A stretch of 62,809 bases of DNA, counting the filler, from Chrysochromulina tobinii (lineage: Eukaryota): assembly GCA_001275005.1 (NCBI GenBank). It is 10 parts of 10 records of this genome, joined end to end, with 100 filler letters (N's around TTAATTAATTAA, not from the genome) between each part and the next. Parts side by side here need not be neighbours in the genome. Positions count along the whole stretch, not along the records: positions 1 to 18,011 come from JWZX01000358.1; 9 more parts are not named here. The stretch is one strand, 5' to 3'. The first letter of the stretch is position 1. Each line of letters starts with the position of its first letter. Positions 1 to 18,011 of the stretch are shown piece by piece. The position numbers and the translations under genes are program-made. The notes under the pieces are model-generated. The model worked only from the letters and a program-made list of their open reading frames with translations, did not search any database and was not told the DNA's origin.

Positions 1-860
1 TTCTTGGCGCCGAGCACCGCGAGCTCGAGCCCCGCCCCCGTCGCGGCCGCCAGCTCGCGCACGACCACATCAAACGACGGCTTCACGCGCGCCGCGTCGG
101 CAAAGAGCACGGCCGCGACGCCCGCCTCGTCGCGCTGCTCGGCGACGGCGGGCTTCTTGATCGCGGCGTCGAGCGCCACGACCGCCGCCTCGTACTTGGC
201 CATGCCGTCCGCGTCGCCGCTCTTGATCACATTGAACACGCTCCCGTAGACCGACTGAAAGTCCTTGTTTCCCGCTTCGATCGCCGTCTGGCACGCCTTG
301 ACCAGCTCCCCCGCCGCCTCCTCGCTCACGCCCTCGGTGCGCTTTTTAATCTCGGTGGCCATCACCTGATCCACCGCGACGAGCTGCGCACCCAGCGCGC
401 CGACGGCCTCCTCGGAGTCTGGGTCGCGCGCCACGTTCAGCTCGAGCTCGTGCAGCCGGGCGCACGCTGCCTCGATGGCTTCGGTCTTGGCCAGTGTCTT
501 GAATGTATTGAGCGCCTCGGGCAGCTTGGCCGCGTGCTCGTCGTCGCCTTCCGTGGCCGCCGCCGACTTGATGGGGCCCAGCGCCTCGGCCGCCCTCTTT
601 TGAAGCGGCCGGAGCGCTTCGGGCACCTCGGACCGGGCATCGACCTCGCCAACCGGCGGCGTCTCGCCCTGCTTGGCCCCCTGCTCGAGCAGCCAGCGCC
701 CCAGATAGGTGAGCGGCCCTTCCGGCCGCGCGTCGGCCAGCGCATTGATGGCGGCGCTGAGAGCCGCCTCGAGCCTACCGCGGTGCTGGTCGACGAACGC
801 GTTCCGCGCCTGCACGTCGCGTGCGGCGCGCATCCGTCGACGCGCAGGACCAGATTCTCG
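1..860 (-). CDS. Partial hypothetical protein, runs off the window start; N-terminal Dpy-30/RIIa-like docking motif
   Basis: Open minus frame reads ...RLEAALSAAINALADARPEGPLTYLGRWLLEQG...VKPSFDVVVRELAAATGAGLELAVLGAK with high GC3. The start codon is not resolved. Confidence 0.55.
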
Positions 861-1929
861 GAGCCTGCCCTGCTCTGGATTGAATCTAAAGATCGCCCAA
901 AATCTGTATTCTAATCTCCGATATGAGATTTTCATTCGAGGAACTGTGCTTCCAACGCCAGTTCATGTACACGTTCATCCCCGTCGTCATCTGGGCGAAA
1001 TCCAGGAAATATCACCTCCTTAGCGGCGCCCCGCTTGCTGGCCTGTTGCCAGTAGTCATGTAAGCGCGCCCCCCGGGGACGCGCCTGCATGAGCGCCGCT
1101 GTACTGTGTGGTCCTGTTTTCAATTCACACGTTCACGTTAAATTGCCATCTCGGCAAGACTCACAGCCACAGGTCCCGTGGTCGAAGCCAGTTGTGCTAT
1201 ATGCTGACGTGTCATCTACTTTTTGCCGCGCAAACCTTTTCATTTTAAAAGTGAGGACTTTGTTCATGTTTGTATTGAAGTTTGACCCTGCAAAACTTGG
1301 CTACTGTCCAACTGTGCGAAACACACGTTGGAGCACAAAAGGTCAAGCTCTAAACAAGTTCCTTCTCGTGCGACTGAAGATGAATAGATCAAAGGAGGAG
1401 GATGGACGTGAGCGTAGGCCGTAGCCAGTGGACAGAGGTCAGAGCCAGGACGCAGGAGTGGACCCACCCCGGCGCACGGACTGGAACAGCACGGCGACCG
1501 AAATGTAACTAAATAACTACAAGATTCTCGATTCTCGGAGCGTGAGGGAAAACAGTTAAAACATGGCCCATGCGGTCCAACTGTTTCATATGCGCCAGAA
1601 CTCACCGGCGAACCGACGTGTACACGATGGACGGTCGCCCGCGGCATACAGATACACGCAGATACGCACACACATAGTTCATGCGCGAACCGTGATGCGA
1701 GGATATGGCGCCAGACGAGACATCATTGACGTTCACATGAGAGAGACGAGAAAGACTTGCGGTCATCTGCTGCATCCCCAGATCAGAACAGCACGAGAGA
1801 GTTCCCTCACGGAGGCGTCCATATTTGAAACTAGAGGCAGGCAGGGGCGCCACGTGTTCACGACCCAGCTCCACAGTTCACGCGCGCCAAGCCGAAACAA
1901 CGTTGGGGGCTCCATAAAGCCATCGAGGG

Positions 1930-2085
1930 CTTCCAAATTTGGGCTCGGACCCCAAATTGGGGTTGGATGGCGCCCAAATTTGGGCACCGAAGCGCCCAAT
2001 TTGGGCTCAGGAGTGCCAAAATTTGGGCTCAGGAGTGCCAAAATTTGGGCTCAGAAGCGCCCAAATTTGGGCTCAGAAGCGCCCA
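1930..2085. repeat. Tandem ~20-22-bp repeats built on the CCAAATTTGG palindrome, overlapping the ftsZ 3' end
   Basis: ccaaatttgggctc, gcccaatttgggctcagg and ccaaaatttgggctcag recur about 8 times. Confidence 0.85.
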
Positions 2086-3657
2086 AAGAAGCGACCGCGT
2101 GGCGGCGGCTTGGCCGGCGGCGGCGGCTGCGTGTAGCGGGAGGGCGGCGGCGCATACGCCGGCGGCACGTACGGATCCGCCTTCGATCGAGACGATGCCA
2201 CGACGGCCTCCGGAGGCACCTGATGAGGGAGGCAATCAGACAGCCCATCAGTGGCAATCAAGAGGCAATCAGACAGCTGGCGGAGTTCACGACGGCCTCC
2301 GGGGGCACATCGAAGCTCGTCGCGACCACAGTGACCGAGATCTCATCTCCGTAGGTTTCGTCAACCGAGGTGCCGAAGATGATGTTCGCATCCTCCGCGC
2401 AGATATTCGAGATCACGGACGCGACCTCGTTCACCTCCTGCAGCGACATGTCGCTGTTGCCCGTGATGGTGAACACGACGCCCTTGGCCCGTTCGATTGG
2501 GAAGTCGAGCAGCGGCGATGAGATCGCTGCGAGAGCGGCGTCTCGGGCACGCGTCTTACCGAAGCCGCGCCCGATGCCCATCAGCGCCGGCCCAGCGTCT
2601 GTCATCACGGCCCGCACCTGATGAGGGAGGCAATCAGCATGCAATCAGACCCAGCGCCGGCCCAGCGTCTGTCATCACGGCCCGCACCTGATGAGGGAGG
2701 CAATCAGCATGCAATCAGACTCAGCGCCGGCCCAGCGTCTGTCATCACGGCCCGCACCTGATGAGGGAGGCAATCAGCATGCAATCAGCCCCGGCGCACA
2801 TCGGCGAAATCGACGTTGATCAGCCCGGGCTTGATCACGATGTCCGAGATGCCGGTGATGCCCTGGCGCAAAATCTCGTCCGCCATCGAGAAGGCCTCCT
2901 GCAGCGGCACCCCCTCGGGCACGATCTCGAGCAGCTTGTCATTCGAGACCACGATCAAGATGTCCACCTGGGCCTCGAGCGCCTCGATGGCCTCGATGGC
3001 CTGGTTCATCCGTCGTCGTCCTTCGAAGCTGAAGGGTTTCGTCACGATGCCAACCGTCAGGCAGCCGGCGGCCTTGGCGAGCTCGGCGACCACCGGGGCG
3101 GCGCCCGAGCCGGTGCCGCCGCCCATGCCCGCGGTCACGAAGATCATGTCCGTCCCTGCCACTAGCTGCTCGATCTCTGCCGCTGCGTCGATGGCCGAGG
3201 CGCGCCCGACGGCGGGTATGCCGCCCGCGCCGAGGCCGCGCGCCTGATTCTTGCCCAGCTGGATCGTCGTGTCAGCCATCGAGCCCGCGAGCGCCTGCAC
3301 GTCCGTATTGCATGCCACGTACTCCAGGAAGGTCGAGCGCTCCAAATCGCCGGGCGTGGCCAGCCGATTAATCGTGTTGCCGCCGCCACCGCCGACGCCG
3401 ATCACCTTGATCGAGCAGGGCGACATGCCCGGGCTGGTCGGGCGAATGGGCTTCGAGGTGGTCTGCGGAGGCACGTAGTCGACGCCCTTGAACTCGCCCT
3501 CCTGCATCGCGAGCGCGCCCGAGCGCCGATGGGACAAAGCGACGGCCGCCGCGCCGGAGGCGACGGAGGTGCCCGTGGCGAAGCCGCTCGCAGCGCTCGT
3601 GGTGAACCCGCTCACGCCTCGCAGCGTTAGGACCGCGAGAACTAGCAGTGCGCGCAT
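2073..3657 (-). CDS. ftsZ: Plastid division protein FtsZ, nucleus-encoded; exons 3657-2800, 2617-2309, 2219-2073
   Basis: Motifs IKVIGVGGGGGN, GLGAGG, AGMGGGTGSG, KPFSFEGRRR, INVDFAD|VRAVM, ISSPLLD, IIFGTSVD. Signal peptide MRALLVLAVLTLRGVSG followed by F (bipartite leader). GT-AG introns restore the frame. Confidence 0.95.
2220..2308 (-). other. ftsZ intron 2 (89 nt), duplication plus branch-point-repeat type
   Basis: Starts gtgcccccggaggccgtcgtg, a near copy of the exon 3 start gtgcctccggaggccgtcgtg. Ends ctgattgcctccctcatcag. Confidence 0.85.
2618..2799 (-). other. ftsZ intron 1 (182 nt), three abutting GT-AG units of 42, 70 and 70 nt
   Basis: Acceptor cassette ctgattgcatgctgattgcctccctcatcag ends at 2758, 2688 and 2618, each followed directly by gtgcgggcc. 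Confidence 0.9.
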
Positions 3658-3897
3658 CTGTCAGCGTGGATGACGGTGATGGACCTGTCAATGGATGAAG
3701 CGACCTGCTGAGAGGCGCCAACCTGCGCCGCGTAATCATTGTCACAAGACGTTTCGAGAAACTTGACGAACCCAAGTTCGCGAAGTGCAAGTACCTCAAA
3801 AGCTTAGAGATACACGCACGTCAATGCTCGCAACGCGTGCAAACCGACATCGAGACTTCGTAGTCTGCCGCGCTGCGGCAATAACTTTACCGCCACC

Positions 3898-4902
3898 ATG
3901 AACGCCACCGCGCTCGCGCGTCCGGCGCTCCGTGTTACGGCCAAGGACTGCGGCGCGGGCTTCTTCGCGTTGCTGATCTACGCGCTCAACCAGCTCATCT
4001 ACGCCGAGTCGCATGGCTACGCCGCCCACGTGGACTTTGGAGAGCGTTGCCGCGACGGCCGCATCAACCGCTACTACAGCGCCGCGCACGGAACCAACGT
4101 GTGGGACTACTTTTTCCTACCCGTCGCACCAGCGGTGGTGCCGAGCGCGTCCGACGTGCTACTCACGCCGAAGCAACTCTTCAACCTCCATCATCTGGAC
4201 CCCGAGTCCATACAGACCTATCCGCACGGCGTGCATCGCCATCTCAAGCTACCTCGCTGGCGATACGATGAGCCATGGCACTGGACGATGCGCAGCCGCG
4301 CCTACCGGCTCCTTTCGGGTCCCGTTCGTCTCAAGCCCCCGCCGCTGCACGTCGTGCGCACGTTTTACCGCGAGCACATACTCGCGCGCGGTTCCGAACG
4401 GCCACTGCTTGGCCTGCACCTTCGTGGCACCGACAAGCTCAAGAATATCGGTGGCCGCATCATCGGGCCTGCGGAATACCAACCGCTCGTGGGCGCGTAC
4501 CTCACGCGCCATCCCGACGCGCTCATCTTCCTCGCCACCGACTCGCCGGCTTTCCTCGCCGAGATGCGCCGCCGCTACCCCGACACGCTCGTCGTCTACG
4601 ACGCGCTGCGCTCGGAGCGCAACGTCTTCATCGATCGCAAGGTGGCGGACACGTACAAAAAGGGCGAGGACGCGCTCGTGGATGCGCTGCTGCTCTCGTG
4701 CGCCAACCTGCTCATCAAGCCCGCCTCGGCGCTCTCCGAGTTTGCCGTCTATTGGAACCCGCAGCTGCACAACCACACGCTCGAGCTCCAGTACGAGGTG
4801 GGGCTCGACGTGCCCGAAACACTCAAGGCGCATTTTGCGAGCGAACGCGACCGGTTGCGGGGGTTTGAGCGCTGCGCGCCCGTTTTGAGGGCAGCAGCTT
4901 GA
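3898..4902 (+). CDS. NodZ-like / O-fucosyltransferase-fold glycosyltransferase
   Basis: GAGFFA, NVWDYFF, LGLHLRGTDK, IFLATDS, GEDALVDALLLS..LLIKPASALSEFA match the GDP-fucose-binding motifs of GT23/NodZ-type enzymes. Confidence 0.8.
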   Translation: MNATALARPALRVTAKDCGAGFFALLIYALNQLIYAESHGYAAHVDFGERCRDGRINRYYSAAHGTNVWDYFFLPVAPAVVPSASDVLLTPKQLFNLHHLDPESIQTYPHGVHRHLKLPRWRYDEPWHWTMRSRAYRLLSGPVRLKPPPLHVVRTFYREHILARGSERPLLGLHLRGTDKLKNIGGRIIGPAEYQPLVGAYLTRHPDALIFLATDSPAFLAEMRRRYPDTLVVYDALRSERNVFIDRKVADTYKKGEDALVDALLLSCANLLIKPASALSEFAVYWNPQLHNHTLELQYEVGLDVPETLKAHFASERDRLRGFERCAPVLRAAA

Positions 4903-5457
4903 CCGGACATGTGGAGACTATACTACTATCTAGGATCGTTTACGCCGCGCGACTTTCATGTTTCGCTGCGAGATCTCATGCGGCCGCGCTCCGGCTCCAC
5001 ATGTCATCACATGTCGACCCCTTGCCTCAATCCGCGCGGCGCTCTCGTGACTCCGTCACATCGCCGCAGTCGCGCGCGTCATCTGGCCTATCGCTCCACC
5101 GCTCTGAGCCGGTCCCTCGCCTCAATCGGCGCGGCCACTGGCACTGCGCCACCTCTTTCCGTTCACACACTCTCACTCGTCAGTCGTCACTAGAAAATGC
5201 TCACTCGTCCGCGTGTCGCGCCGTCGTCGTCCCGGGCTCACAGATCATACATCATAGTTCTCAATTGATAGTTCTCACACAGATGTTCTCACACAAAGTT
5301 TTCACTGTGATCTTCTCCTACAGAGTACAGACCATGGTTATGTGGGAACATCAGCACAATCACACAGATCCTGGATAATCGGTCTTCGATGTGTGAACAT
5401 GATGTGAACTTTGGAAAACGGGTGTCATCTCGTTGCCCGAGCTTCCGTCGCTGTGCG

Positions 5458-6078
5458 ATGACGCATCCTCGCTTCAGCACGCTGCTGGCGCTCGTCCTGA
5501 TCGCCGTCGCCGAATGCTATCACGTGGTCAGCGCGCCGCTGCCGTGCGTGCGAGTAGCTGCACGAGCTACGCCGGCGCCCGTCATGATGGCCAAGAAACA
5601 GGCGGCGGGGAAAAAGGTCCAGGTCGTGCTCAGCCAGACGATCAAGGGCATCGGCAACAAGGGCGAGCTCGTGTTGGTGGCGCCGGCGTATGCGGAGAAC
5701 GTCGTCGTTCGGGGCGGGCTGGGCGTGATCGCCTCACCCGAGATCTTGGCGGACATTGCGGCCAACGCGGCGAAGGACGCAGCAGCGGCGAAGGCGGCAA
5801 AGGATGCCGCCATTGATGCCGACAAAAAGCTCGATGCCGTCTTCGGCAAGCAGGGCTGCTTGATCAAGAAGAGCGTGGGCCGTGACGGCGCCATTTTCGG
5901 CTCGATCACCGCGGCGGAGGTCGCCGATGCGATCAAGGAGCGTGCGGGCCTCGTCGTAGACAAGAAGGACATCGAGCCGCCTACGATGAAGGGCGTGGGC
6001 ACGGGGACGGCCGAGGTGAAGCTGCACAAGGAGGTGACACACAAGCTCAAGATCGTGGTGGCGCCGGCCACATTATGA
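5458..6078 (+). CDS. rpl9: Plastid 50S ribosomal protein L9
   Basis: Signal peptide and transit region, then VQVVLSQTIKGIGNKGELVLVAPAYAEN and GAIFGSITAAEVADAI...VKLHKEV. Confidence 0.9.
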   Translation: MTHPRFSTLLALVLIAVAECYHVVSAPLPCVRVAARATPAPVMMAKKQAAGKKVQVVLSQTIKGIGNKGELVLVAPAYAENVVVRGGLGVIASPEILADIAANAAKDAAAAKAAKDAAIDADKKLDAVFGKQGCLIKKSVGRDGAIFGSITAAEVADAIKERAGLVVDKKDIEPPTMKGVGTGTAEVKLHKEVTHKLKIVVAPATL

Positions 6079-6404
6079 GGGGCCGTAGCGAGCCTGCCGC
6101 TCCCGAGCCGCCGCATGAGGCATGCAGACTGTCTCAGACTCGGTCGTGTAGACGCTCTTCCTCGCCACAGACCGAGTACGTATCGCTGTCGGTCGCGCGG
6201 CGACGGTGCGTAAGTCGGTGCACTGTGTGTGTGTACTTTCTTTGTTACTTTCGCACAACCGACCGTAGCCCTTTTCCGCAGTGTTTCCCGCAGTGGGATC
6301 GCGCAGTAGATCAGACCACTCGCTCGGTCGTCGGTGCACACTCTACGGTATTAGGGCCCTCCAGGCACCACGCTCTAGGACTAGGTGCCCATCACTCGCT
6401 CGGT

Positions 6405-9400
6405 TCAGACGTTGAGCGGCCGGCTCCTGCCGACCACGCCTCCCACAGCCTCAGTCAACTGAGCCGCTGTGGGCGAAGGCACGCGCGCCGGGTAGCCCCC
6501 AGCTTGGCCCGGACTCTCCCTGACGAAACCCGGGGAGCCTGCCTGACCCAGCGCCGTCGTGGGCGCATGCGGCGGCGGCGCGCCGTCAGGCCCCGGGAGG
6601 CCGTGGGGAGATCCGGGGAAGGCGATGGGCCTGTGCTCGGCGAGCTGCTGCCGGCGGGACTTGTGCACCGGCGTCAGCTTGAGGCCGGGGTGCGTCGCGC
6701 CGCCGTGGGCACCGCTCGGCGGCGCGGCGGGGGGATGGCTGCTGCTGCTGCTGCCCACGCCGGCGCGGGGCGACCCCCCTGTCCTTAAGGCGCCCACCAC
6801 GACGCCGCCTTGGGCGAGCGTGCCGCGCGCTATCGTGGGCGTCGAGCGCGAGAGTCCCAAACTGGGCAAGCTCACGCCGTGCTGAGCGCCGTGCTGAGCG
6901 CTCGGCGTCGTGGCGGGCGTCGCGGGTGCGCCGATGACGCGCGCACCCGCGACGACAACGGCCGGGTTCACGCCCATATTTGGAACAAACGTATTCGGAA
7001 CGTCCGTGCCCATATTTGGAGCGTCCGCCCCAAAAGGCGAGCGGTTCACACCCATATTTGGAGCGTCCGCCCCAAAAGGCGAGCGGTTGCGCGCCTGAAC
7101 ATGCGCCCCCATGGAGCTCGTGCTGCCCGCGACGGCGCCGCGCAGCGCCGTCCTGGGCGGCAGTCCACCACGGGCTGTGTGGCCCGCGCCGATGGCGGCG
7201 CCGTCCTGGGCGGCGGCTCCAATGGCGGCGGCGGCGCCGCCGATGGCGGCGGCGTTGGTCCAGGGCGCCGCGTCGGGCGCCGCGTAGGGAGAGGAGGAGT
7301 CGGCGCCCGACTCGGCGCCCCCTTCCTTTTCGGGCAAGTATGAGGCCGTCCGTAACGGCTCGTCCATGCCCGACGGTTGGGCGCTGACGTTCATCGTCGG
7401 GATTGAATTGCGGACTTGCCTCGGGGCACCTGATAATGAGGGGGGCAATCAGGTGGCACTCAGCGTGGCTGGCCATCAAGAGGCCATCAAGAAGAGGCAG
7501 TCCGATGCCATCAGATGCAATCCGATGCCATCAGATGCGATCAGATACAATCAGATGCACTCAGATGCACTCACCTTTCCATGTAGGCTCTGGATGGATG
7601 GGCGTCGCCTTCGCCAGCGGCGGCGGCGGGTTGACCTCCACACGCACCACCATCTCGCCAAAGTCGGCCCCTACGGACACGATGCCCCAACGTCGCAATC
7701 AGAGGCAATTAGAGGCAATCAGAGGCAATTAGATGCAATCTCGCCAAAGTCGGCCCCTTCGGAGACGATGCCCCAACGTCGCAATCAGAGGCAATTAGAG
7801 GCAATCAGAGGCAATTAGATGCAATTAGAGGCAATCAGATGCACTCACCTTCGGACACGATGCCCCATCGCGTTCGGTTGGTTGGGTTGCGCACGAAGCG
7901 GTGCTGCTGCGCGCCCCTCTCGTCCGCCGGGTCACCGCTCGCGTTCGCGGGCTTATCCGCGACCTTAAGCCCACTCAATTGGCTTGTGAGGTGGTCGCGC
8001 AGCTGCAGCAGCGAATGAAGCGACGACTTGACGAGCATGGAGCGCTCGTGTTTCGAAGCTTCGCGCATCCGTGAGAGCGCATCCCATGCCTCGTGAGACG
8101 ATTGGAGGGCCTCGCCGAGCGCCGCCTGATGAGGGAGGTAATTAGGGAGGCAATTAGGGAGGCAATTAGGGAGGCAATTAGGGAGGCAATCAGGGAGGCA
8201 ATGAGGGAGGCAATCAGGGAGGCGATTAGGGAGGCGATTAGGGAGGCAATCAGGGAGGTAATCAGGGAGGTAATGAGGGAGGTAATGAGGGAGGCGATTA
8301 GGGAGGTAATTAGGGAGGCAATCATGTTGGAGCGCTTCTCCGAGGGCCGCTTGATGAGGGATGTAATTAGGGAGGCAATCATGTTGGAGCGCTTCTCCGA
8401 GGGCCGCTTGATGAGGGATGTAATTAGGGAGGCAATCATGTTGGAGCGCTTCTCCGAGGGCCGCTTGACGAGGGAGGTAATTAGGGAGGCAATCATGTTG
8501 GAGCGCATCTCCGAGGGCCGCTTGACGAAATTAGAGGTGCAATCAGACACACTCAGAGGCATTTCGAGAGGCACTCAGCTGGGCGAACTAGAGAGGCAAT
8601 CGGCGACACCTTCACGTCGTCCGGGGAGGACATCATCAGGTCCCACGCGTGCTGCAGCTCATGTGTTAATTGCGATCTCTCGCCCTCGAGATCGGCCACG
8701 CGCCGCCGAAGCTTCTCCGCCTCTGCCTCCGCCGCTGCCGCTCGAATGTCAAAGTCTTTCTGGACGGCGTCCATCTTCGCCTTCGAGTCCTTGCCAAAGT
8801 TCTGCAGCCGTTCCTCGAGGCTCGACACGTACCTGTGGGGAAAAGGCACTCGATCGCAATCAATGCTCATCAGTGCTCATCAGTGCTCATCAGCGCTCAT
8901 CAGCGCTCATCAGCGCTCATCAATGGCATTCACGCACGATGATCGGTCGTTGAGCTGCTGGCTCAGAGCGCCCGCTTTCTCATGAGCCTCTTTGAGCTGC
9001 GCCTCGAGCGCGCGCTTGGTGGCGAGGTGCTCGCGTGCAGACGCTTCGTAATTGGCTCGCATCGTCTCGATTTGGGCCGCTTGCCTCGCGCACCTGATGA
9101 GGGACGCAATTAGGGAGGCCATTAGGGAGGCAATGAGGGAGGCCATTAGGGAGGCCATAGGGAGGCCATTAGGGAGGCAATTAGGGAGGCAATGAGGGAG
9201 GCCATTAGGGAGGCAATTAGGGAGGCAATGAGGGAGGCCATTAGGGAGGCAATGAGGGAGGCAATGAGGGAGGCCATTCGGGAGGCAATCGACTCGATTT
9301 GGGGGCCGCGTGCTTCACGCACTCCAACGTCTTTTGCTCTAACGCCGACGCCGTGGTCGCGAGCTGCGATCTCGTCTGTTCGAGATCGGCCGAGGTCGCG

Positions 9401-11812
9401 GCGAGAATCTTCTTTGTGTTTTGGAGCAGCTCGAAGGTCTGCGAAGGAGGAGGTCGGACGTGAGCGGCAATTAGGCGCACTCAGGCGCACTCAGGGAGGC
9501 ACTCAGGGAGGCACTCAGACGCACTCAGACGCACTCAGGGTACAATCAGGCGCACTCAGTCGCACTCACCTGCGCCAGGTCGGTGCGCGTCGCGTCGAGC
9601 TCGCCCATGAGCTGCCGGATCTCGCCCAAGGCCTTGTCGTGCTGGGCACGCACCGCCCGGAGATCGTCCTGGAGATTGTGCAGTCGCTTCGCGCTCTCCT
9701 TGCTCTCCTCGAGCCAGTCCCTTTTTTGGGCGCGCAGCTCCTGCGAGCAATTGAGGGAGCAATCAAGGGAGCAATTGAGGGAGCAATTGAGGGAGCAATT
9801 AAAGGGAGCAATTAAGGGAGCAAGTAAAGGAGCCATCAATGGAGCGAATAAGGGAGCAATTAAGGGAGCAATCAAGGGGGTCATCAAGGGGTTCATCAAG
9901 CAGGCAATCTCGCACCTGGAGCTCGGCGAGAATGACAGTGAGCAGATCGTCCAGATCGACGATGTCGGTCGTGAGCGACTCGGAGGGCGCCGTGCTGAGC
10001 GACTCGGGGGGCCGAGGCGGCCCTCCCGCGGCACGCTCCATGGACACGTGTGCCTTGCGTAGCATCGTCTCGAGCCGAAAGATGGTCGCCTCGTTCTCCG
10101 CGTTCTTGGCTTTTACCTGCGGAGGGGACGGCAATCAGACGTCATCAGACGCCATCAGACGTCATCAGACGCCATCAGACACGAACAGACGCAATCAGAC
10201 GCAATCAGAGGCAATCAGCATGCAATCAGACGTCATCACACCTCGGCGAGCACGGCGAGGCTGGCCTCGGCCCATCCGATGAGGGAGGCAATCAGCATGC
10301 AATCAGACGCCATCACACCTCGGCGAGCACAGCGAGGCTGGCCTCGGCCCACCCGCGGTACGCGTTATGCTCTCGCTGCGCCTGCGAGCTTCGCTGGCTC
10401 AGCTCCTCAAATGCCTCGGTCTTCGATTCGAGCGCGCGCGTCGTCACGGCAAGCTCGGACTGGTACGACGCGAGCTCATCCTCCGAGCGCTGCGACGAGC
10501 CAATCAGGTTCGTCAGAGGTAATCAGAGGTAATCAACGCTCGGACTGGTACGACGCGAGCTCATCCTCCGAGCGCTGCGACGAGCCAATCAGGTTCGTCA
10601 GAGGTAATCAGAGGTAATCAACGCTCTGACTGGTACGACGCGAGCTCGTCCTCCGAGCGCTGCGACGAGCGAATCAGGTTCGTCAGAGGTAATCAGAGGT
10701 AATCAGGGGCCATCAGAGGCCATCAGCAGTGGCACTGAGTGAGGCACTGAGTGGCACTCCGATGCCATCTCACCTGCAGCTGGTAGTCGGCTCTTCGAAA
10801 CCCTTCTCTGAGTGGCCATCAGTGGCCATCAGTGGCAATCAGTGGCAATCAGAGGCCATCTCACCTGCAGCTGGTAGTTGGCCTCTTCGAAACTCTTCTC
10901 GGCCTTCGCGCGCATCTGGCGCTCCTCACCTGATGAGGGAGGCAATCAGCATGCAATCAGCCCCGATGCCCATCAGCATGCATCTGGCGCTCCTCACCAT
11001 TGGCGTCGCGCAGCTCGCCGTTGAGGTTCGTCAGCTTCGAGATCTCGGCGAGGAGCTCGGCCTGTCGCGCAAATGCCTCGTGCAGGATCTTGCCTTGCTC
11101 ACCTGATGAGGGACGCAATCATGCCTCATCGTAGTGCTCATCAGAAGTTCTCAGGCGTCCTCAGAGGTCCGCAGAGCTCCTCAGTGCTCCTCAGGAGGTC
11201 CTCAGAGGTCCTCAGAGGTCATCAGGGGTCCGCAGAGCTCCGCAGAGCTCCGCAGAGCTCCGCAGAGCTCCGCAGAGCTCCTCAGAGCTCCTCAGAGGTC
11301 CTCTGCGTAAGGATCTCGCTTGGCTCACCATCCTTCTCCTCGCCAGAGCCGGCGCCGACTGCGCTGAGGATGCGCTCGACGATCTTCTGCTCGATCTCGA
11401 GCTGCGAGAGCTCGCGTCCTCGGTAGTCCGCCTTCACCTCTTCCACCTTGATCTCTCCCGCCTTTCGCGCGCGATCGAGCTTTTCCTCATTCGCCTTGAT
11501 GCCTTCCTTCAGCTTCTCCCTGAGGCTGAGCTGCAGCTCGTCGGCGATGCGGGAGATGAGCGCAAGGACCGAGCCGGATATCGACTCGAGCCCGAGCCCC
11601 ACTATCTGCCGCATCGCCTCCCACTTCTCCTCGTCCTCATCCGCAAACACCTGCAGCTGCTCGAGCAGCTCCTGCGACGCGCTCCCGATCGCGACCTCGA
11701 CGTCCTCGTCGACGCTCTTGAGCGACGGCGCGCCCAGCGAGTCCTTGGTCGGACTCAGCCTCTTGGCCAGCTGCGGCGCCGAGCGGTTCTGGCGCGTGAC
11801 GGCCTTGAGCAT
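6405..11812 (-). CDS. Large multi-exon coiled-coil protein with a low-complexity Pro/Gly/Ala C-terminus; roughly a dozen or more repeat-rich introns
   Basis: Heptad-rich exon fragments (ELQLSLREKLKEGIKANEEKL; ECARQAAQIETMRANYE; ELRAQKRDWLEESKE; YVSSLEERLQNF) are separated by GT-AG introns such as 11103-11328, 10930-10997 and 10490-10864. The exon map is only partly resolved. Confidence 0.7.
8126..8530 (-). repeat. Intronic 12-mer array (ctaattgcctcc/ctgattgcctcc) plus four 60-bp-period diverged copies of the next exon start
   Basis: Plus strand shows attagggaggca repeats and atcatgttggagcgcttctccgagggccgcttg four times. Confidence 0.85.
9093..9322 (-). repeat. Intron with a 12-mer array, starting with a diverged copy of the following exon
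   Basis: Intron starts gtgcgtgaagcacgcggcccccaaatcgag and the exon starts gtgcgcgaggcaagcggcccaaatcgag. The interior is ctaattgcctcc/ctcattgcctcc repeats. Confidence 0.8.
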
Positions 11813-12044
11813 CCTCCGATGAGTCGGCGGCGGGCGAAACGGCGCACAAAAGTTGAAGGAAACACCTCGACTTCACGTTCACGTTAAAATTGCCAACGCG
11901 GAACACCTCGTCTATTCCAAGCTGTGGTCGGGTCACGTACAATTAGCCTCTGTCACTTGGGGCCCTTGGGATTTCGTCCACAAATCTGAGACGCTGCAAA
12001 AGGAGATTCGCTCCAAAACGCACCGCCCGTCGCCACCGCGAGGC

Positions 12045-12596
12045 ATGGAGCTCACGGCGATGGACGAGCGGATCGAGGCGATCCTGAGCGCCAAGCGTGC
12101 GGCCGCGGCTGCACACCTCAAGCAGATGAGAGACCACTTGGCGGCCCTCGGCGAGCAGGAGGCGCTCCGATGCACCGACGCGAGCCTACTGCGCTTCCTT
12201 GAGTCGGAGGTGACGTTGAAAGGCACGGAAGTGAAGGCTGTGCGCGTCCCGTCCGCCGCGAGGAACCTGCTCGCCACGCTCAAGTGGCGCAAGAGCTACG
12301 GCCTCGAGTCGCCAGGTCCGCCGCTGCGCACGACGCCGTGCTGCCCGGGCTGTGAAGAGAACGCGTACTCCCACTGCTTCTTCTCGATCGGCGTCGACAA
12401 GCGCGGCTGGGAGGTGTTTTACGCGTGCCCGGGCCGCTCGCACGGCAAGAACCCGGACGCCCTCGTCCGCCACAGCATCCTGAGCCTGGAGAGTGTCTTC
12501 GAAGGACCTTTTGAAGTGCATCCGCGGGATATGCCCAACACGGCGCGGGATATGCCTAATATGGATATGCCCAACACGGTGTCGACGACTGCCGGC

Positions 12597-12634
<38 letters not shown>

Positions 12635-14636
12635 GAGCACTGGCGGCCTCCTCGTAGCTGACGAGCGACCTCTGATGGCTCCTCTGGGAGGCGCCGAGGC
12701 GAGCCATGCGACGAGCGGTGCGCCCGACGACGAGCCGCTCACGGTGATGGCCAAGGTGCTGCTCACTCCTCGCCGACGGGAACGGCAGCAGCACGTGCTT
12801 GCTGCGAGCTCCGTCGAGGTGCGTCGGAGATTGCGTCGGAGATTGCGCCTGACTGATGGCGTCTGATTGCGATAGATGAACGCTCCAGGCAGCGAAGCGA
12901 GAGCAGTCTGATGACCTCTGTTGGCGTCTGGTGGCGCTCAGATGGCAGGTGCTGCCACGCCTCCCTGATGACCTCTGATGGCGTCTGATGACCTCTGATG
13001 GCGTCTGATGACCACTGATTGCCTCTGATGACCTCTGATGGCGTCTGATGACCTCTGATGGCGTCTGATGACCTCTGGTGGCGTCTGTTTTCGCTCGATG
13101 GCAGGTGCTGCCACGCCTCCTGCCGGCCACGATCTCCCCCGATCTCCTCCCGACGGTTTCGTCAGTTTCGTCAGACAAGGGGCGCGCGAGCAAGGGGCGC
13201 TCGATCACGTCAGTTTCGTCAGTTTCGTCAGTTTCGTCAGACAAGGGGCGCGCGAGCACGGACCGCTCGATCACGTCAGTTTCGTCAGTTTCGTCAGACA
13301 AGGGGCGCGCGAGCACGGGCGTTGCAGGCAGGGTCGGCGTGGGCGAGGGCGGCGGCAGAGGCACAAGCGACGACGACGCGAGTGAGCGGTGCCAGTTGTG
13401 CCTGCAGGCTGGCGTGGGCGGATTGGGCGCCGAGTTGGGCGCCGAAGGCTCTTCGCTACCTCCGTGGTGCCGCCCCTCGTCGTCGAAGCACATGGTGATT
13501 GCGTCTGATTGCGTCTAATTGCGTCTAATTGCCTCTGATTGCCTCACTCATCAGGTGCCGCCCCTCGTCGTCGAAGCACATGGTGATGCTTGTCGACTTG
13601 CATGGCTTCGGGATAGCGGACATGGACCCGAGGGTGGGGCTGAAGGCGATCCCGATCATCTTGTCGCACTATCCCGACCGCATCGCGCAGGTGTGTGAGT
13701 GCGTCTGAGTGCGTCTGAGTGCGTCTGAGTGCGTCTGAGAGCGTCTAATTGCGTCTGAGTGCGTCTGGTCTGATTGCCTCGACAGGTAGGCTCCTCGACG
13801 CTCCATGTTCACACCTCTGGTCCATGTTCACACCTCTGGTCCATGTTCACAGGTAGCGCTCCTCGACGCTCCATGGATCTTTAAGGGCATCTGGTCCATG
13901 TTCACGCCTCTCCTCGACGAGATCATGCAGATGAAGGTGATGGCTACTGATTGCCATTGATGATGACTGATGACATCGACGAGATCATGCAGATGAAGGT
14001 GCACACATGTGCTCCGGGGCGAGGACCCCCAGCAGCTCTGATGGCCGCTGATTGCCACTGACGATCACTGAGGGTCACTGATTGCCTCTTTCATCAGGTG
14101 CGCATGCTCCAGGGCGATCACTGATGACCTCTTGATTGCCTCTGATGACCTCTCGATTGCCTCTTTCATCAGGTGCGCATGCTCCGGGGCGACGACATGC
14201 AGCAGTACTTCACATCGTTTCTAACGGCCGAGCAAGTGGAGTTCATGCAAGCCGTGCTGACGATCAAGGCCGCGCCGCGAAAGGTGGTGGCCGCTGATTG
14301 CCTCTGATTGCCTCTGATTGCCTCTGATTGCCTCTGATTGCCTCCCTCATCAGCCGTGCTGACGATCAGGGCCGCGCCGCGAAAGGAAGCCTGCCCACTC
14401 TCGAACCATGACGAACCCCGACGAACCCCGACGAACCCTGACGAACCCTGACGAACCCTGACGAACCCTGACGAACCCTGACGAACTCTGAACCCGAACC
14501 CGAACAGGAAGCTTTCCCGCCCATCACCGCGTCAATCCGTCGGTCGCTCGGCCCCGCCGACAAGTTCTACCGCGATCATCTGGAGGCGATGGGGGGGCAG
14601 TTGGACGCCAAGATGCACCAATGCTGTGGGTGCTGA
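12045..14636 (+). CDS. CRAL-TRIO (Sec14-like) lipid-binding protein, multi-exon
   Basis: TDASLLRFL, LLATLKWRK, GVDKRG.EVFY. Spliced exons read MVMLVDLHGFGIADMDP..IILSHYPDRIAQ|VALLDAPWIFKGIWSMFTPLLDEIMQMK|VRML. The middle exons (12750-13150) are uncertain. Confidence 0.85.
13467..13554 (+). other. Intron whose first 33 nt exactly duplicate the next exon start
   Basis: gtgccgcccctcgtcgtcgaagcacatggtgat at 13467 and 13555, separated by (gcgtctRatt)n and ctcatcag. Confidence 0.9.
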
Positions 14637-14919
14637 CGTTCCCCTATGAACAGCGCACGTTTACCACGTTCGGAGGTCTCGCAGATCACTCACCCTCGTG
14701 AGAAGTCCGCCAAGGCCCAAGGGAACGCAATCCCGATCCCAGCAGAACGCAGAACGCAGATCACGCAGAGCCAATTGCTAATCTTGGGACAGACTCTGCT
14801 CAGATCTGAGATCAAATGATTCCACCGTTTTTGGAACCCTTAGCCGCGATCTATCTCGTTTGACCCGACCCGTCTCAAAATTTAAATCATATAAAATGAT
14901 ACACCATGATGATCACACT

Positions 14920-16090
14920 TCACAGCCTCACCAGCACGACAATGTTGCCTCGGATCTCGTGCCCCGCGTCGGTCCGGACCGCCAAGTCAAGTCAAGTCAA
15001 GTGCCCCGCGTCGGTCCGGACCGCATGCGGACCGCCGTCTCCTCCAAGCTGAAGAGAGTGAGCTCCGTGGAATGCTGCGCCACCAGATGAGGGGATCCTC
15101 ACGTGATCAGCTAATATGTGCAATCCCAACTCGTTTCACAGGAGGCAGCTCTCAAAGGAGAGGCGAGATCACACCGAGATGTACTCAGAGGTCCGTAGGG
15201 AGGGCAGGCACTCAGGAGAGGCGAGATCACACCGAGATGTACTCAGAGGTGATCTCCGCAGGGAGGGCAGGCAACAGAGAGAGGCAATCAGAGGTCATCA
15301 GAGAGGCGATCAGAGGTTCATCAGAGGGGCCATCGGTCTAGGCAATCCGACTCCTCGAAACACGCACCTGAGCCACGAGGTAGTGGACGTATTCCACGCA
15401 GTGTGCGACCCTCTCCGACGCCCTCTCGAGCCAGCCAGGCCCTTGCGGCGGCAAACCTCCGCGGACCTCGTCGAGGCGGCACGTCTCAGTTGAGAAGGCG
15501 AAGACGCCGCCCGAGGCCAAGGCGGCCACCGCGGCGGAGAAGAGCTCGGCGAGACCATGCAGATAGCAGATCACGTCGGCGGCGACGATCAGATCCGCAG
15601 AGCTCGCTTTCTGATCGCGTAGATACGCGACGCAGTCACCACAGGTGGGTACCGCATCGTACACGCCCTTGGACTCGGCGATCCTGATCATGCTGCTGCT
15701 GAGATCGCATCCGAACAAGTGGCCCGTGCAGTGCTTGCGGAGGAGCGCGCCGGCGAGACCCGTCCCGCACCCGAGATCCAAGCACGCGGTGGAGCTGAGC
15801 ACTCCGTCCGACGCACCCGTGGATGCGACGAATGCAAGCAGCGCCCTCTCGAGCTGTGCAGGCGTTTCATACTGCAACGAGCCGAGCAAAAGGGGCTCGA
15901 AGTCCGCCGCGTGCCGGTCGAAGAGGGCGGAGACGTGCTCTCGGTAATGGCCGTCGAGCAGCGCCTCCGCAGTCATCGTCGGCCCCTGGTCGTCACGCTG
16001 GTCCAGTGAGCCCCTGGCCAAGAGTTCGCGACAGAGCCGTCCCGGCTCGACGAGATCCACGGAACCGCTAGTCGGCGCCGCCGAGCGCAT
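14920..16090 (-). CDS. Class I SAM-dependent methyltransferase (resembles the MTase domain of TPR-methyltransferases), with 3' introns
   Basis: VSALFDRHAADFE..L..LQYETP, CLDLGCGTGLAG, GCDLSSSMIRIA, DLIVAADVICY, GGVFAFSTE, R.AH..YV. Intron about 15075-15367; 3' exon ends IRGNIVVLVRL*. Confidence 0.85.
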
Positions 16091-16131
16091 GCTGCCGCCC
16101 TGCGGCGCGAAGAAAGGCCGCCCTGCTGTCG

Positions 16132-17817
16132 GTGTCGCGAGCGCGAGAGGCGGTGCGCAACCTATCGAGCAAGAGCGCGCTGGCTGACGGCGAGCCGCCC
16201 ATGTACTTTGTGCATGCGACTAAAGCGGGCGAGGTGCCGCTCTTCGTCGAGAAGAGCAAATGGAACAAGTTGATCACGCGCTGCGAGCACTGCGCCGGCG
16301 ACGTGCAGGCGCTCGCGACCGCGCTGAAGCAGGCGCTGGGCACGGGCGGTACGATGGATGGCAGCGCCATCATCATCCAGGGCGATCAGCGCGAGGCCCT
16401 GACGGCGTGGCTCCTCAGCCGCGGGCTCGTTCGCGGGCTGCGCTCAGACAAGCTCTCGGAGAAGCACGAAAAGGGGGACGCGCCGGAGGAGGTGGCGGCG
16501 CCGGTGCTGCGCGAGCGCAAGAAGCCGCGCTGGACGACGGGCGACAAGGCGGCCGCCGCGGCGCGTGCGAGCAACGAGCAAAGCGACGGGGATGGCGCCG
16601 ACGAACCCGACGAACCCGACGAACCTGACGAACCCGACGACGGGGAGGGTGGCGCCGACAACGGTGCTCTCGAGGGCGGGGTCTCATCGCGGTTGCGCGA
16701 GGCCTCCTCTCGCCGCTCGCTCGCCGAGCTGCAAGACGACGACGTCGAGGCGCTCGTCTCGGTGGACAAACGATCGATCACCGACAAGAAGGGGTACAAG
16801 AAGTTCGTGCGTCTGATGAAGAGCTGGCCGTACTGGAGCTGTGAATATTCACAGCTACCCTGCCTCTGGCAACGCCACCAGGTGATGCCGCCGAGGGCCC
16901 CTGACGAAACCTCATGAGAGCCTCTGACGAAACCTCCTGATTGCCTCTGACGAAACCTCATGAGAGCCTCTGACGAAACCTCATGAGGCCGTTGACGAAA
17001 CCTCATGGAGCCTCTGACGAAACCTCCTCATTGCCTCTGACAAAACCGCATGAGAGCCTCTGACGAATCCTCATGAGAGCATCTGACGAAACCTCCTGCG
17101 CGCCGCTGACGAAACCTCCTGAGTGCCTCTGACGAAACCTCTGCTGAGATGCGCCTACAGGTGCGCACGGATGGCATTCGGGAGCTCTGCGCGTCCGAGG
17201 ACGACCTTCAGCGAGATCTGCGCATCCGAGGACGACCTTCAGCGAGACCGTTGAAGCCCAGGAGGCGCACGGAGGGATGTTCGACCTCGTGCTCGAGTGC
17301 GGCGGCGACGACTCCGTATTTCCAGGGTGCAGCCGCCGAGCTCTTAGAATCCGTCGCCGAACTCGACGCGGCCCACTCTCGTGGGGAGGGCAGCGTACGG
17401 AGCCCTTGGCAAGCCCAAGCCGTGCCGGCGCTCGCTGGCCGCGCCGGAGCCATACACTTGGCGAGCACATCCCATCCTTCCACCGTCGCCGACCATTCGC
17501 CCCCATGTGTCGCCGTGGAAACGGCCGCTGGTTCGAACGCGGCCGCACGCAAGGTGGGAAAGCGGCCGGTGCTAGTCCCCCTGGGGTCTGGCGGCATCGC
17601 GAGATGGGGCCAGTCGAACCCCATTTCCTTCCTTCGTATCCCCAAAGTCATTAAGTCAACCCTTTCATTAGAATCAATTGAACACGTTCCTTGGCGTAAA
17701 CTTGGTCACGTTGGTAGAGATTGGCGGTTCATCAATAACTACACAAATGGCAGCCTGGTGAGCGCGACATCCCAAGATCACCGATCTGGGCAGCCTGGCT
17801 ACCAATCCCGCATCTGA
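16132..17817 (+). CDS. SUI1/eIF1-like domain protein; intron about 16882-17160; first in-frame ATG at 16201
   Basis: KLITRCEHCAGDVQALATALKQALGTGGTMDGSAIIIQGDQREALTAWL matches SUI1. The intron is built of ctgacgaaacct repeats. The 3' end is uncertain. Confidence 0.65.
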
Positions 17818-18011
17818 CCACGACTCCCCCCTCCCCCCCTCTCCCCAATTGCATGCGACAAGGGGTTGAAGACCGAACAAACTGTCTCTCCACCTTCATT
17901 TCACGCGAGACGCTTTCCTGTCAATGGTGGCCGCCCCATCGACCCGTCCCGACGAGCCGCTCGACCCGCCCGCCGTGTGCTGCGGTCGCGAGTTCCGCGT
18001 GCGACGCGCAC

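What the first reader, a model, noticed from the sequence alone, without database searches (positions are those of the whole stretch)
2618..2799. Three back-to-back GT-AG introns (zero-length exons) in ftsZ
Seen: units 2758-2799, 2688-2757 and 2618-2687 each start GT and end with the full acceptor cassette, joined as CAG|GTGCGG. Only removal up to the last AG gives intact FtsZ. Established: AG|GT ratchet points mark recursive splicing, known from very long animal introns. Inference: a 182-nt algal intron may be removed recursively. The restored exon start is itself GTGCGG, so something must stop it acting as a donor. A similar stack occurs at about 14097/14172.
Basis: partly seen in the sequence, partly recalled or inferred. 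Interest (0 to 1): 0.72.

Follow-up and report, generated by a model that had tools for sequence, protein, structure and literature searches.

The report
Algal intron packed with exon copies
An intron in a freshwater alga's chloroplast-division gene holds two spare copies of its own end plus the start of the next exon, and finished RNA lacks all of it; the copies are likely duplication scars rather than stepwise-splicing signals, and most nearby introns carry such scars, suggesting this alga is likely making new introns now.

Summary
The three GT...AG units are real, but units 2 and 3 are each a 36-37-nt copy of the exon-2 start plus a 33-nt acceptor cassette: a tandem duplication across the intron/exon boundary, the 'mirage' pattern known from amphioxus. 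The host is the Chrysochromulina tobinii/parva complex. RNA contigs in 2 of 3 runs skip exactly 182 nt; contigs cannot tell one step from several. Recursion is possible (about 20%) but not needed: neighbouring introns skip internal acceptors followed by CG or CC, which cannot ratchet, and skip duplicate donors; 12 of 18 exons here start with GT anyway. Copy number is 3 in two assemblies, 2 in another; DNA depth is 2.5x. The stronger result lies outside the finding: 13 of 18 introns in this contig carry a 16-40-nt copy of their own flanking exon beside a shared CTGATTGC repeat cassette, and ftsZ has three intron positions present in some strains and absent in others. This points to ongoing intron gain, like Daphnia's but with longer repeats. 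The scan noted similar acceptor arrays earlier in annelid and sea-urchin DNA.

The parts
2800..3657 (-). ftsZ exon 1 (ATG at 3657; likely plastid-targeted FtsZ, N-terminal extension plus GTPase domain)
   Evidence: Pfam Tubulin/FtsZ and FtsZ_C on P0133; RNA contigs 2795-3710
2758..2799 (-). U1, 42 nt: real donor GTGCGC plus acceptor cassette; its last 36 nt recur exactly at the end of intron 10997-10930
2688..2757 (-). U2, 70 nt: 37-nt exact copy of exon-2 start plus 33-nt acceptor cassette (decoy acceptor at 2688; preceded by decoy acceptor at 2758)
2618..2687 (-). U3, 70 nt: 36-nt exact copy of exon-2 start plus cassette ending in the acceptor that is used (2618); one unit fewer in L036
2309..2617 (-). 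ftsZ exon 2
   Evidence: RNA contigs X12 record 22, X15 record 29, X11 record 13
2220..2308 (-). ftsZ intron 2, 89 nt; starts with a 21-nt copy (1 mismatch) of the exon-3 start; absent from strain locus L027
   Evidence: RNA pieces with the exon-3 variant base
2073..2219 (-). ftsZ exon 3 to the stop codon
10490..10864 (-). Control intron, 375 nt: decoy donor at 10773 and two decoy acceptors (10660, 10575) followed by CG; outermost sites joined in RNA
   Evidence: (1 of 4 runs, depth 3, shorter side 30 nt)
10117..10318 (-). Control intron, 202 nt: decoy donor copy at 10241 skipped
   Evidence: (joint in 2 of 4 runs)
13937..14172 (+).
   Evidence: (1 of 4 runs, depth 3.5)
14284..14507 (+). Control intron, 224 nt: a full cassette acceptor at 14353, 70 nt from the donor and followed by CC, is skipped
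   Evidence: (joint in 3 of 4 runs)

Best explanation
The 182-nt stretch is one intron of a Chrysochromulina ftsZ gene that holds two extra head-to-tail copies of its own acceptor plus the first 36-37 bases of the next exon, and mature RNA lacks all 182 bases; the copies likely arose by local duplication and are likely skipped in one cut to the last acceptor rather than ratcheted off. Shown: the repeat anatomy, the 182-nt net removal, 2 or 3 acceptors in different assemblies, no intron at this site in other haptophytes. Inferred step 1: the intron was gained in this lineage when a short CTGATTGC...CTCATCAG cassette, shared with many other introns, was copied in beside a duplicated GT-starting piece of exon (break repair or template switching; short homologies such as CTGA, TGAT, ATGC lie at the entry points). 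Inferred step 2: the same process or slippage added a 70-nt acceptor-plus-exon unit, and unequal exchange changes its copy number. Inferred step 3: the spliceosome pairs the first donor with the last acceptor, as the final products of four other decoy-bearing introns show; that the repeat arrays mark 'inside the intron' is my untested guess at how.
For: Units are exon copies. RNA skips exactly 182 nt in X12 and X15; X11 is broken at the joint but its pieces fit. Outermost sites are joined in 4 of 4 other RNA-covered introns that hold decoy sites, including decoy acceptors followed by CG or CC and decoy donors, none of which can be cleared by AG|GT ratcheting. 13 of 18 introns (8 of 9 RNA-supported) match their own flanking exon better than any of 34 foreign flanks; score 28 or more in 13 of 18 own against 2 of 612 foreign pairs. 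107 of 108 homologues with the DFAD motif read on in frame there (many are transcripts), and genomic locus L020, with introns close by on both sides, has none at this site. Copy number 3/2/at least 2. 182 nt is an ordinary length here (68-484 nt in 18 introns); U1 at 42 nt is shorter than all. In X11 the AG|GT junction piece has 2.8 times the depth of the unspliced-donor piece (11.9 vs 4.3), as for unspliced RNA alone (one run, weak). Amphioxus mirages with AG/GT signals do not disturb splicing (PMC3087553, PMC3902484, passages).
Against: Contigs cannot separate a direct cut from stepwise cuts, because the 36-nt repeat is longer than a usual assembly word and rare branches are dropped. Control joints rest on depth 2-8 contigs; two of the four are in one run only, and the 10575 decoy is identical to the used site over the junction. 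Products with early stops would be hidden if nonsense-mediated decay acts. Each unit has a CTGAT branch-like motif and a good donor (9.7 bits as CAG|GTGCGG), so nothing in the sequence forbids stepwise removal. 9 of the 18 introns are predicted from reading frame only. RNA folding shows no clear exposure of the last acceptor (see rejected list).
Confidence: 0.6

Rival explanations
1. Recursive (ratchet) removal is the main route: exon 1 joins the first or second acceptor, the join regenerates a GT donor, and the remaining 70-nt units are spliced one after another; or units are removed inside-out, as in fungal stwintrons.
For: Every partly spliced form is a normal-looking pre-mRNA: regenerated donor 7.1 bits against 5.9 for the real donor; a 70-nt unit has the same build as the RNA-supported 68-nt intron 10997-10930 and 88-nt intron 13467-13554. 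Consecutive splicing of short nested introns is shown in fungi (PMC7138796, passages).
Against: Not needed, since non-GT decoys are skipped elsewhere. No excess of AG|GT junction depth over unspliced RNA in X11 (weak). Units are unconserved, variable in number and absent from relatives. Known ratchet points sit in long introns and use a cryptic exon with its own donor (PMC8605326, passages); the candidate inner donors here score -0.4 and -7.1 bits.
Confidence: 0.2
2. The spliceosome often picks an inner acceptor; the frameshifted products are destroyed or ignored, so only the outermost product is seen. The stack is then a mildly harmful, tolerated repeat.
For: Inner-acceptor products carry a stop within 18 codons of the joint. 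Unspliced pieces are common in the RNA runs (intron 2: depth 4.9/3.5/5.5 unspliced against 13.3/4.6/11 spliced), and high intron retention is reported for Emiliania (PMC4028052, passages), so splicing is loose in haptophytes.
Against: Decoy splice sites were found in 6 of 18 introns by the scan, and 2 more by eye (13785, 14353); a rule favouring outer sites explains that load more simply than waste at each. No inner-acceptor joint is among the 15 joints listed.
Confidence: 0.15
3. The third unit, or the whole stack, is an assembly artefact.
For: L036, otherwise nearly identical over 12.9 kb, has one unit fewer; L028 and the window differ at base 2651 inside the repeat. Depth is 2.5x, not 3x. 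No long reads were available.
Against: Depth is well above 1x; L028 has three acceptors; a different strain (L027) has at least two; the C. tobinii gene model needs three (inferred from the protein). Other stacks over 12 kb have the same copy number in the window, L028 and L036. At most the count (2 or 3) is in doubt.
Confidence: 0.05

Closest known systems
'Mirage' minisatellites of amphioxus (Adh3, troponin C, globins BflGb6/BflGb9, PGBD5); PMC3087553 and PMC3902484, passages read
   Same: Tandem copies of intron 3' end plus exon 5' start; unit in the reported 10-160 bp range; AG/GT signals in the copies; copy number varies; normal mRNA is made; donor-side versions occur too.
   Different: Here in a haptophyte; the intronic part is a cassette shared by many introns; the pattern affects most introns sampled and comes with intron presence/absence differences between strains.
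Recent intron gain in Daphnia pulex by repair of staggered double-strand breaks; PMC4202315 and PMC3488318, passages read
   Same: Presence/absence polymorphism within a species; a direct repeat of adjacent exon at one end of the new intron; later internal repeats lengthen it.
   Different: Exon repeats are 4-12 bp in Daphnia and 16-40 nt here; Daphnia inserts have no obvious source, these share a simple-repeat cassette carrying a branch-like motif and an acceptor (or, mirrored, a donor).
Introners, including those of a marine Chrysochromulina MAG; PMC9860276, passages and a supplement search
   Same: A repeated element supplies one splice site and a target duplication supplies the other.
   Different: Introner duplications are 3-9 bp (4 bp in that Chrysochromulina) and copies match along their length; here introns differ in length (68-484 nt) and share only short cassettes. 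C. tobinii and C. parva appear only in the list of assemblies in the supplement as held (file cut when stored), not among rows reporting Introners.
Recursive splicing at ratchet points (Drosophila Ubx, Bx, kuz; vertebrate long introns); PMC8605326, passages read
   Same: Juxtaposed AG|GT inside an intron; a donor would be regenerated after the first cut.
   Different: Intron of 182 nt, not long; sites unconserved and variable in number; no strong downstream cryptic-exon donor; no intermediate shown.
Fungal stwintrons (Aspergillus, Lipomyces); PMC7138796, passages read
   Same: Short complex introns, partly born by duplication of a splice site, removable in one or two steps.
   Different: There nested units are shown to be removed consecutively by smallest-intron choice; here units are serial exon copies and final products use the outermost sites.

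Membership tests
Mirage minisatellite | Tandem repeat whose unit spans an intron/exon boundary | tested here: met
   70-nt unit = 33-nt acceptor end + 36-37-nt exon start
Mirage minisatellite | Normal mRNA made; copies absent from it | tested here: met
   182-nt skip in 2 of 3 RNA runs; P0133 identical to the spliced product; minor forms not detectable
Mirage minisatellite | Copy-number instability | tested here: inconclusive
   3, 2 and at least 2 acceptors in L028, L036, L027; depth 2.5x; assembler collapse not excluded
Recursive splicing ratchet point | Juxtaposed acceptor and donor (AG|GT) with a usable regenerated donor | tested here: met
   7.1 bits regenerated against 5.9 real; median of 17 local donors 8.6
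Recursive splicing ratchet point | Intermediates joining the upstream exon to the ratchet point, and recursive lariats | tested here: inconclusive
   Only contigs were served; the repeat hides the junction; depth ratio 2.8 in one run shows no pile-up
Recursive splicing ratchet point | Lies in a long intron | tested here: not met
   182 nt, within the local range 68-484 nt
Recursive splicing ratchet point | Cryptic RS-exon with its own downstream donor | tested here: inconclusive
   Inner GT sites score -0.4 and -7.1 bits; the next AG|GT, 70 nt on, scores 9.7 and could serve
Recursive splicing ratchet point | Conserved across related species | tested here: not met
   No intron at this site in L020; 107 of 108 homologues read through; unit number varies
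Introner | Family of introns alike along their whole length | tested here: not met
   Longest shared 3' ends 31-36 nt; lengths 68-484 nt; only 18 introns seen, no whole genome
Introner | One splice site carried, the other taken from a short (3-9 bp) target duplication | tested here: inconclusive
   Logic fits intron 2, 10997-10930, 13467-13554 and the L027 intron, but duplications are 18-33 nt
Introner | Terminal inverted repeats or an autonomous transposase partner | not tested
   No whole genome held
Daphnia-type recent intron gain | Presence/absence of an intron between conspecific alleles, absent in outgroups | tested here: met
   Intron 2 absent and another 88-nt intron present in L027; 4 of 15 listed cluster members run into an intron-like tail after AEIEQ (proteins only); outgroup ORFs read through
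Daphnia-type recent intron gain | Direct repeat of adjacent exon at one intron end | tested here: met
   21 nt (intron 2), 29-30 nt (L027 intron), 18 and 33 nt in two neighbours

The most novel reading that the evidence does not exclude
Chrysochromulina is in a burst of intron gain driven by a self-propagating simple-repeat cassette that lands with a long copy of a GT-starting exon piece. Each repeat landing at the same site builds an AG|GT ratchet, and stepwise re-splicing of 70-nt units clears the stack: the shortest recursive splicing known, and the safety net that lets these insertions survive. The intron-gain half alone I put near 0.6; the stated probability is for both halves.
Probability: 0.2. 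Interest if true: 0.78.

Novelty: new variant of a known kind. Interest (0 to 1): 0.5.

Why it matters
Where new introns come from is a long-open question, and few species show gain in progress. A cultured alga with a small sequenced genome, in which one gene has three strain-variable intron positions and most sampled introns keep a long copy of their target site, would let the mechanism be read from strain comparisons. The stack is also a natural test of splice-site choice: three identical acceptors with 36 identical downstream bases, one productive. It warns annotators too: the C. tobinii gene model turns the copies into two extra VRA microexons that the RNA contigs do not show.

Tried and rejected
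No whole genome was held, so statistics rest on 18 introns of one contig. The 20-nt cassette end had 0 matches in viral contigs and 0 in prokaryote genomes: no extra loci. RNA folding gave no consistent sign that the last acceptor is more exposed (acceptor unpaired probability 0.12/0.34/0.21 globally, 0.15/0.35/0.13 with an 80-nt span). Routes using the 33-nt inner GT...AG pieces shift the frame. A heterozygous 3/2 reading of the 2.5x depth was dropped, since C. tobin is reported as likely haploid (PMC4580454, passage); mixed cells, collapse or depth noise remain. One search used an L027 boundary one base off; one search corrected it and left L027 out of the counts, and one search's numbers are the ones used. 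Intron 11328-11103 has a visible 19-nt exon copy but did not beat the foreign flanks (23 vs 24) and is counted as a miss. Eight joints were not shown, so absence of 42- or 112-nt skips there is not evidence. Ten paper searches listed no paper describing these repeats, mirages or intron polymorphism in Chrysochromulina; the library lacks most subscription papers, and I did not see the Emiliania or C. parva genome papers. PMC12480563 and PMC8379373 (passages) had nothing on intron sequence; the latter calls haptophyte intron gain and loss an open question.

Full report
Observation. Of 7 routes tried, only removal to the last AG keeps the frame; with intron 2 (2308-2220) also removed, the product is 437 aa, identical to database protein P0133 and an FtsZ by Pfam. 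The internal AG|GTGCGG joins are therefore copies of the true intron/exon boundary.

Organism. The closest proteins are prymnesiophyte FtsZs, and the 90% cluster includes Chrysochromulina parva and C. tobinii entries; exon 1 matches the C. tobinii protein's start. The window is several contigs joined by spacers; this one spans 1-18011 and holds 55 of the 65 TGATTGC motifs counted.

Is the stack real? In the one DNA run laid, the contig over the unit has depth 100.6 against 39-40 beside it. Of 36 loci from a metagenome scan, three are this gene in this species complex: L028 has three acceptors, L036 two, and L027, a different strain whose contig starts inside the stack, at least two. L028 and L036 differ from the window by only 2 and 1 single bases over about 12-13 kb, so they are not independent strains. 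The C. tobinii gene model reads DFAD-VRA-VRA-VRAVMTD, which needs three acceptors (inferred from the protein). The stack is real; whether 2 or 3 units, or both, exist in cells needs long reads.

RNA. In 2 of 3 RNA runs a single contig crosses the intron and skips exactly 182 nt (X12 record 22, X15 record 29); in X11 the contigs break at the joint. The RNA runs have no cover at 3714-3800 where the DNA run has, so their unspliced pieces are probably RNA. These are contigs: joints to the first, second or third acceptor share the same 36 downstream bases and rare branches are dropped, so intermediates cannot be seen. In X11 the AG|GT junction piece has depth 11.9 and the unspliced donor piece 4.3, a ratio of 2.8, about what unspliced molecules alone give; this is one run and a poor measure.

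Controls next door. Four RNA runs laid on 9950-14700 gave 15 joints, 7 of them GT-AG introns. Decoys followed by CG or CC, and duplicate donors, cannot be cleared by AG|GT ratcheting. So this spliceosome yields outermost products without recursion, or inner products are destroyed. Depths are 2-8, so minor forms would be missed. AG|GT is also not diagnostic here: 12 of 18 exons start with GT, and several ordinary exon joints regenerate donors of 8-10 bits. Recursion stays possible at ftsZ, since the regenerated donor scores 7.1 bits against 5.9 for the real one and a 70-nt unit is built like the neighbouring 68-nt intron.

The wider pattern. I modelled 18 introns in three genes: 9 with RNA support and 9 from reading frame, giving open frames of 1029 aa and about 300 aa for the two neighbours. 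In 13 of 18 (8 of 9 RNA-supported) the intron matches its own flanking exon better than any of 34 foreign flanks, over 16-40 nt; 13 of 18 own pairs against 2 of 612 foreign pairs score 28 or more. In several the copy starts at the first intron base and supplies the GT donor, followed by a CTGATTGC repeat tract ending CTCATCAG. The last 36 nt of U1 recur in intron 10997-10930 and 31 nt of the U2 cassette in intron 10318-10117; summed DNA depth over the cassette is 21,014 against 40, which suggests hundreds of similar copies (the tool warns this is no copy number). Strain locus L027 lacks intron 2 exactly and has instead an 88-nt intron whose 3' end copies the upstream exon end. Four of 15 listed cluster members run into an intron-like tail after AEIEQ, where the window has none, and two start intron 1 with a different body (proteins only). 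Outgroup ORFs read through these sites, and 107 of 108 homologues read through the intron-1 site, though many are transcripts; L020 is genomic and lacks it. Gain is the simpler reading for introns that carry nearly perfect copies of their site; loss in L027 is not formally excluded.

Mechanism. Best reading (0.6): cassette insertion with exon duplication made the intron, a further acceptor-plus-exon unit was added and doubled, and the intron is removed in one cut between outermost sites. The duplications and net removal are shown; the DNA mechanism and the one-cut route are inferred. Rivals: recursion as the main route (0.2), frequent inner-acceptor use hidden by decay (0.15), artefact (0.05).

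Comparison. It is a mirage by anatomy and outcome (PMC3087553, PMC3902484; passages); I took that name from earlier scan notes and checked it in those papers. It fails two features of known ratchet points (long intron, conservation) and the decisive one, intermediates, could not be tested (PMC8605326; passages). The intron-gain pattern resembles Daphnia's, where exon repeats are 4-12 bp (PMC4202315; passages), and Introners, with 3-9 bp duplications and end-to-end similarity (PMC9860276; passages and supplement search), but matches neither fully. Ten searches listed no description of it in Chrysochromulina; genome papers outside the library, and supplements I did not see, may mention the repeats.

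Verdict. Observation confirmed; recursive splicing unproven and not required; the stack is a known kind of repeat, but its setting, an alga apparently gaining introns with long exon duplications, is a new variant worth a genome-wide check. Interest 0.5.

Noticed in passing
L027:198-285 and window 2220-2308: Reciprocal intron presence/absence between strains in ftsZ; the L027 intron is the mirror type (insert gives the donor, a 29-30-nt copy of the upstream exon gives the acceptor).
   Followed up: yes
window about 3165 (after codons AEIEQ); proteins P0122, P0123, P0125, P0130: Four cluster members end in an intron-like tail here, where the window has continuous exon: a likely third strain-variable intron. 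DNA not seen.
   Followed up: partly
window 2570-2585 and 10962-10977 (minus strand): A 16-nt stretch of ftsZ exon 2, just where the duplicated piece ends, recurs exactly inside the cassette of another intron; such chance homology could have primed capture of the cassette.
   Followed up: partly
window 2690-2737: All four RNA runs show the same 17-nt loose end matching the U2 exon-copy/cassette junction with one base changed, a variant not in the window, L027, L028 or L036: another allele, or another locus carrying this junction.
   Followed up: no
window 7671-7848 (minus strand): Predicted intron containing a copy of the spliced junction itself (22 nt of upstream plus 19 nt of downstream exon), like a preserved empty site.
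   Followed up: partly
window 8126-8609 (minus strand): Four 57-nt units with diverged exon-start copies and altered acceptors: possibly an older, decaying stack. No RNA laid here.
   Followed up: no
window 14387-14507: The inner part of this intron starts GAAGCC after AAAG, a possible former GA donor (GA donors are reported at 4% in Emiliania, PMC4028052).
   Followed up: partly
window 6407-11812 (minus strand) and about 12730-14635 (plus strand): An 11-intron gene for a 1029-aa, probably coiled-coil protein, and a gene with a CRAL-TRIO-like domain (Pfam E 4e-4 on one exon, below the curated cut-off).
   Followed up: partly
P0127 (C. tobinii KOO53150.1): The public gene model seems to mis-model the stack as two 9-nt microexons.
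   Followed up: partly
window 18112-62809: Nine further contigs joined by N spacers, with few intron-repeat motifs (10 in all) and many GC-rich low-complexity repeats; not examined.
   Followed up: no
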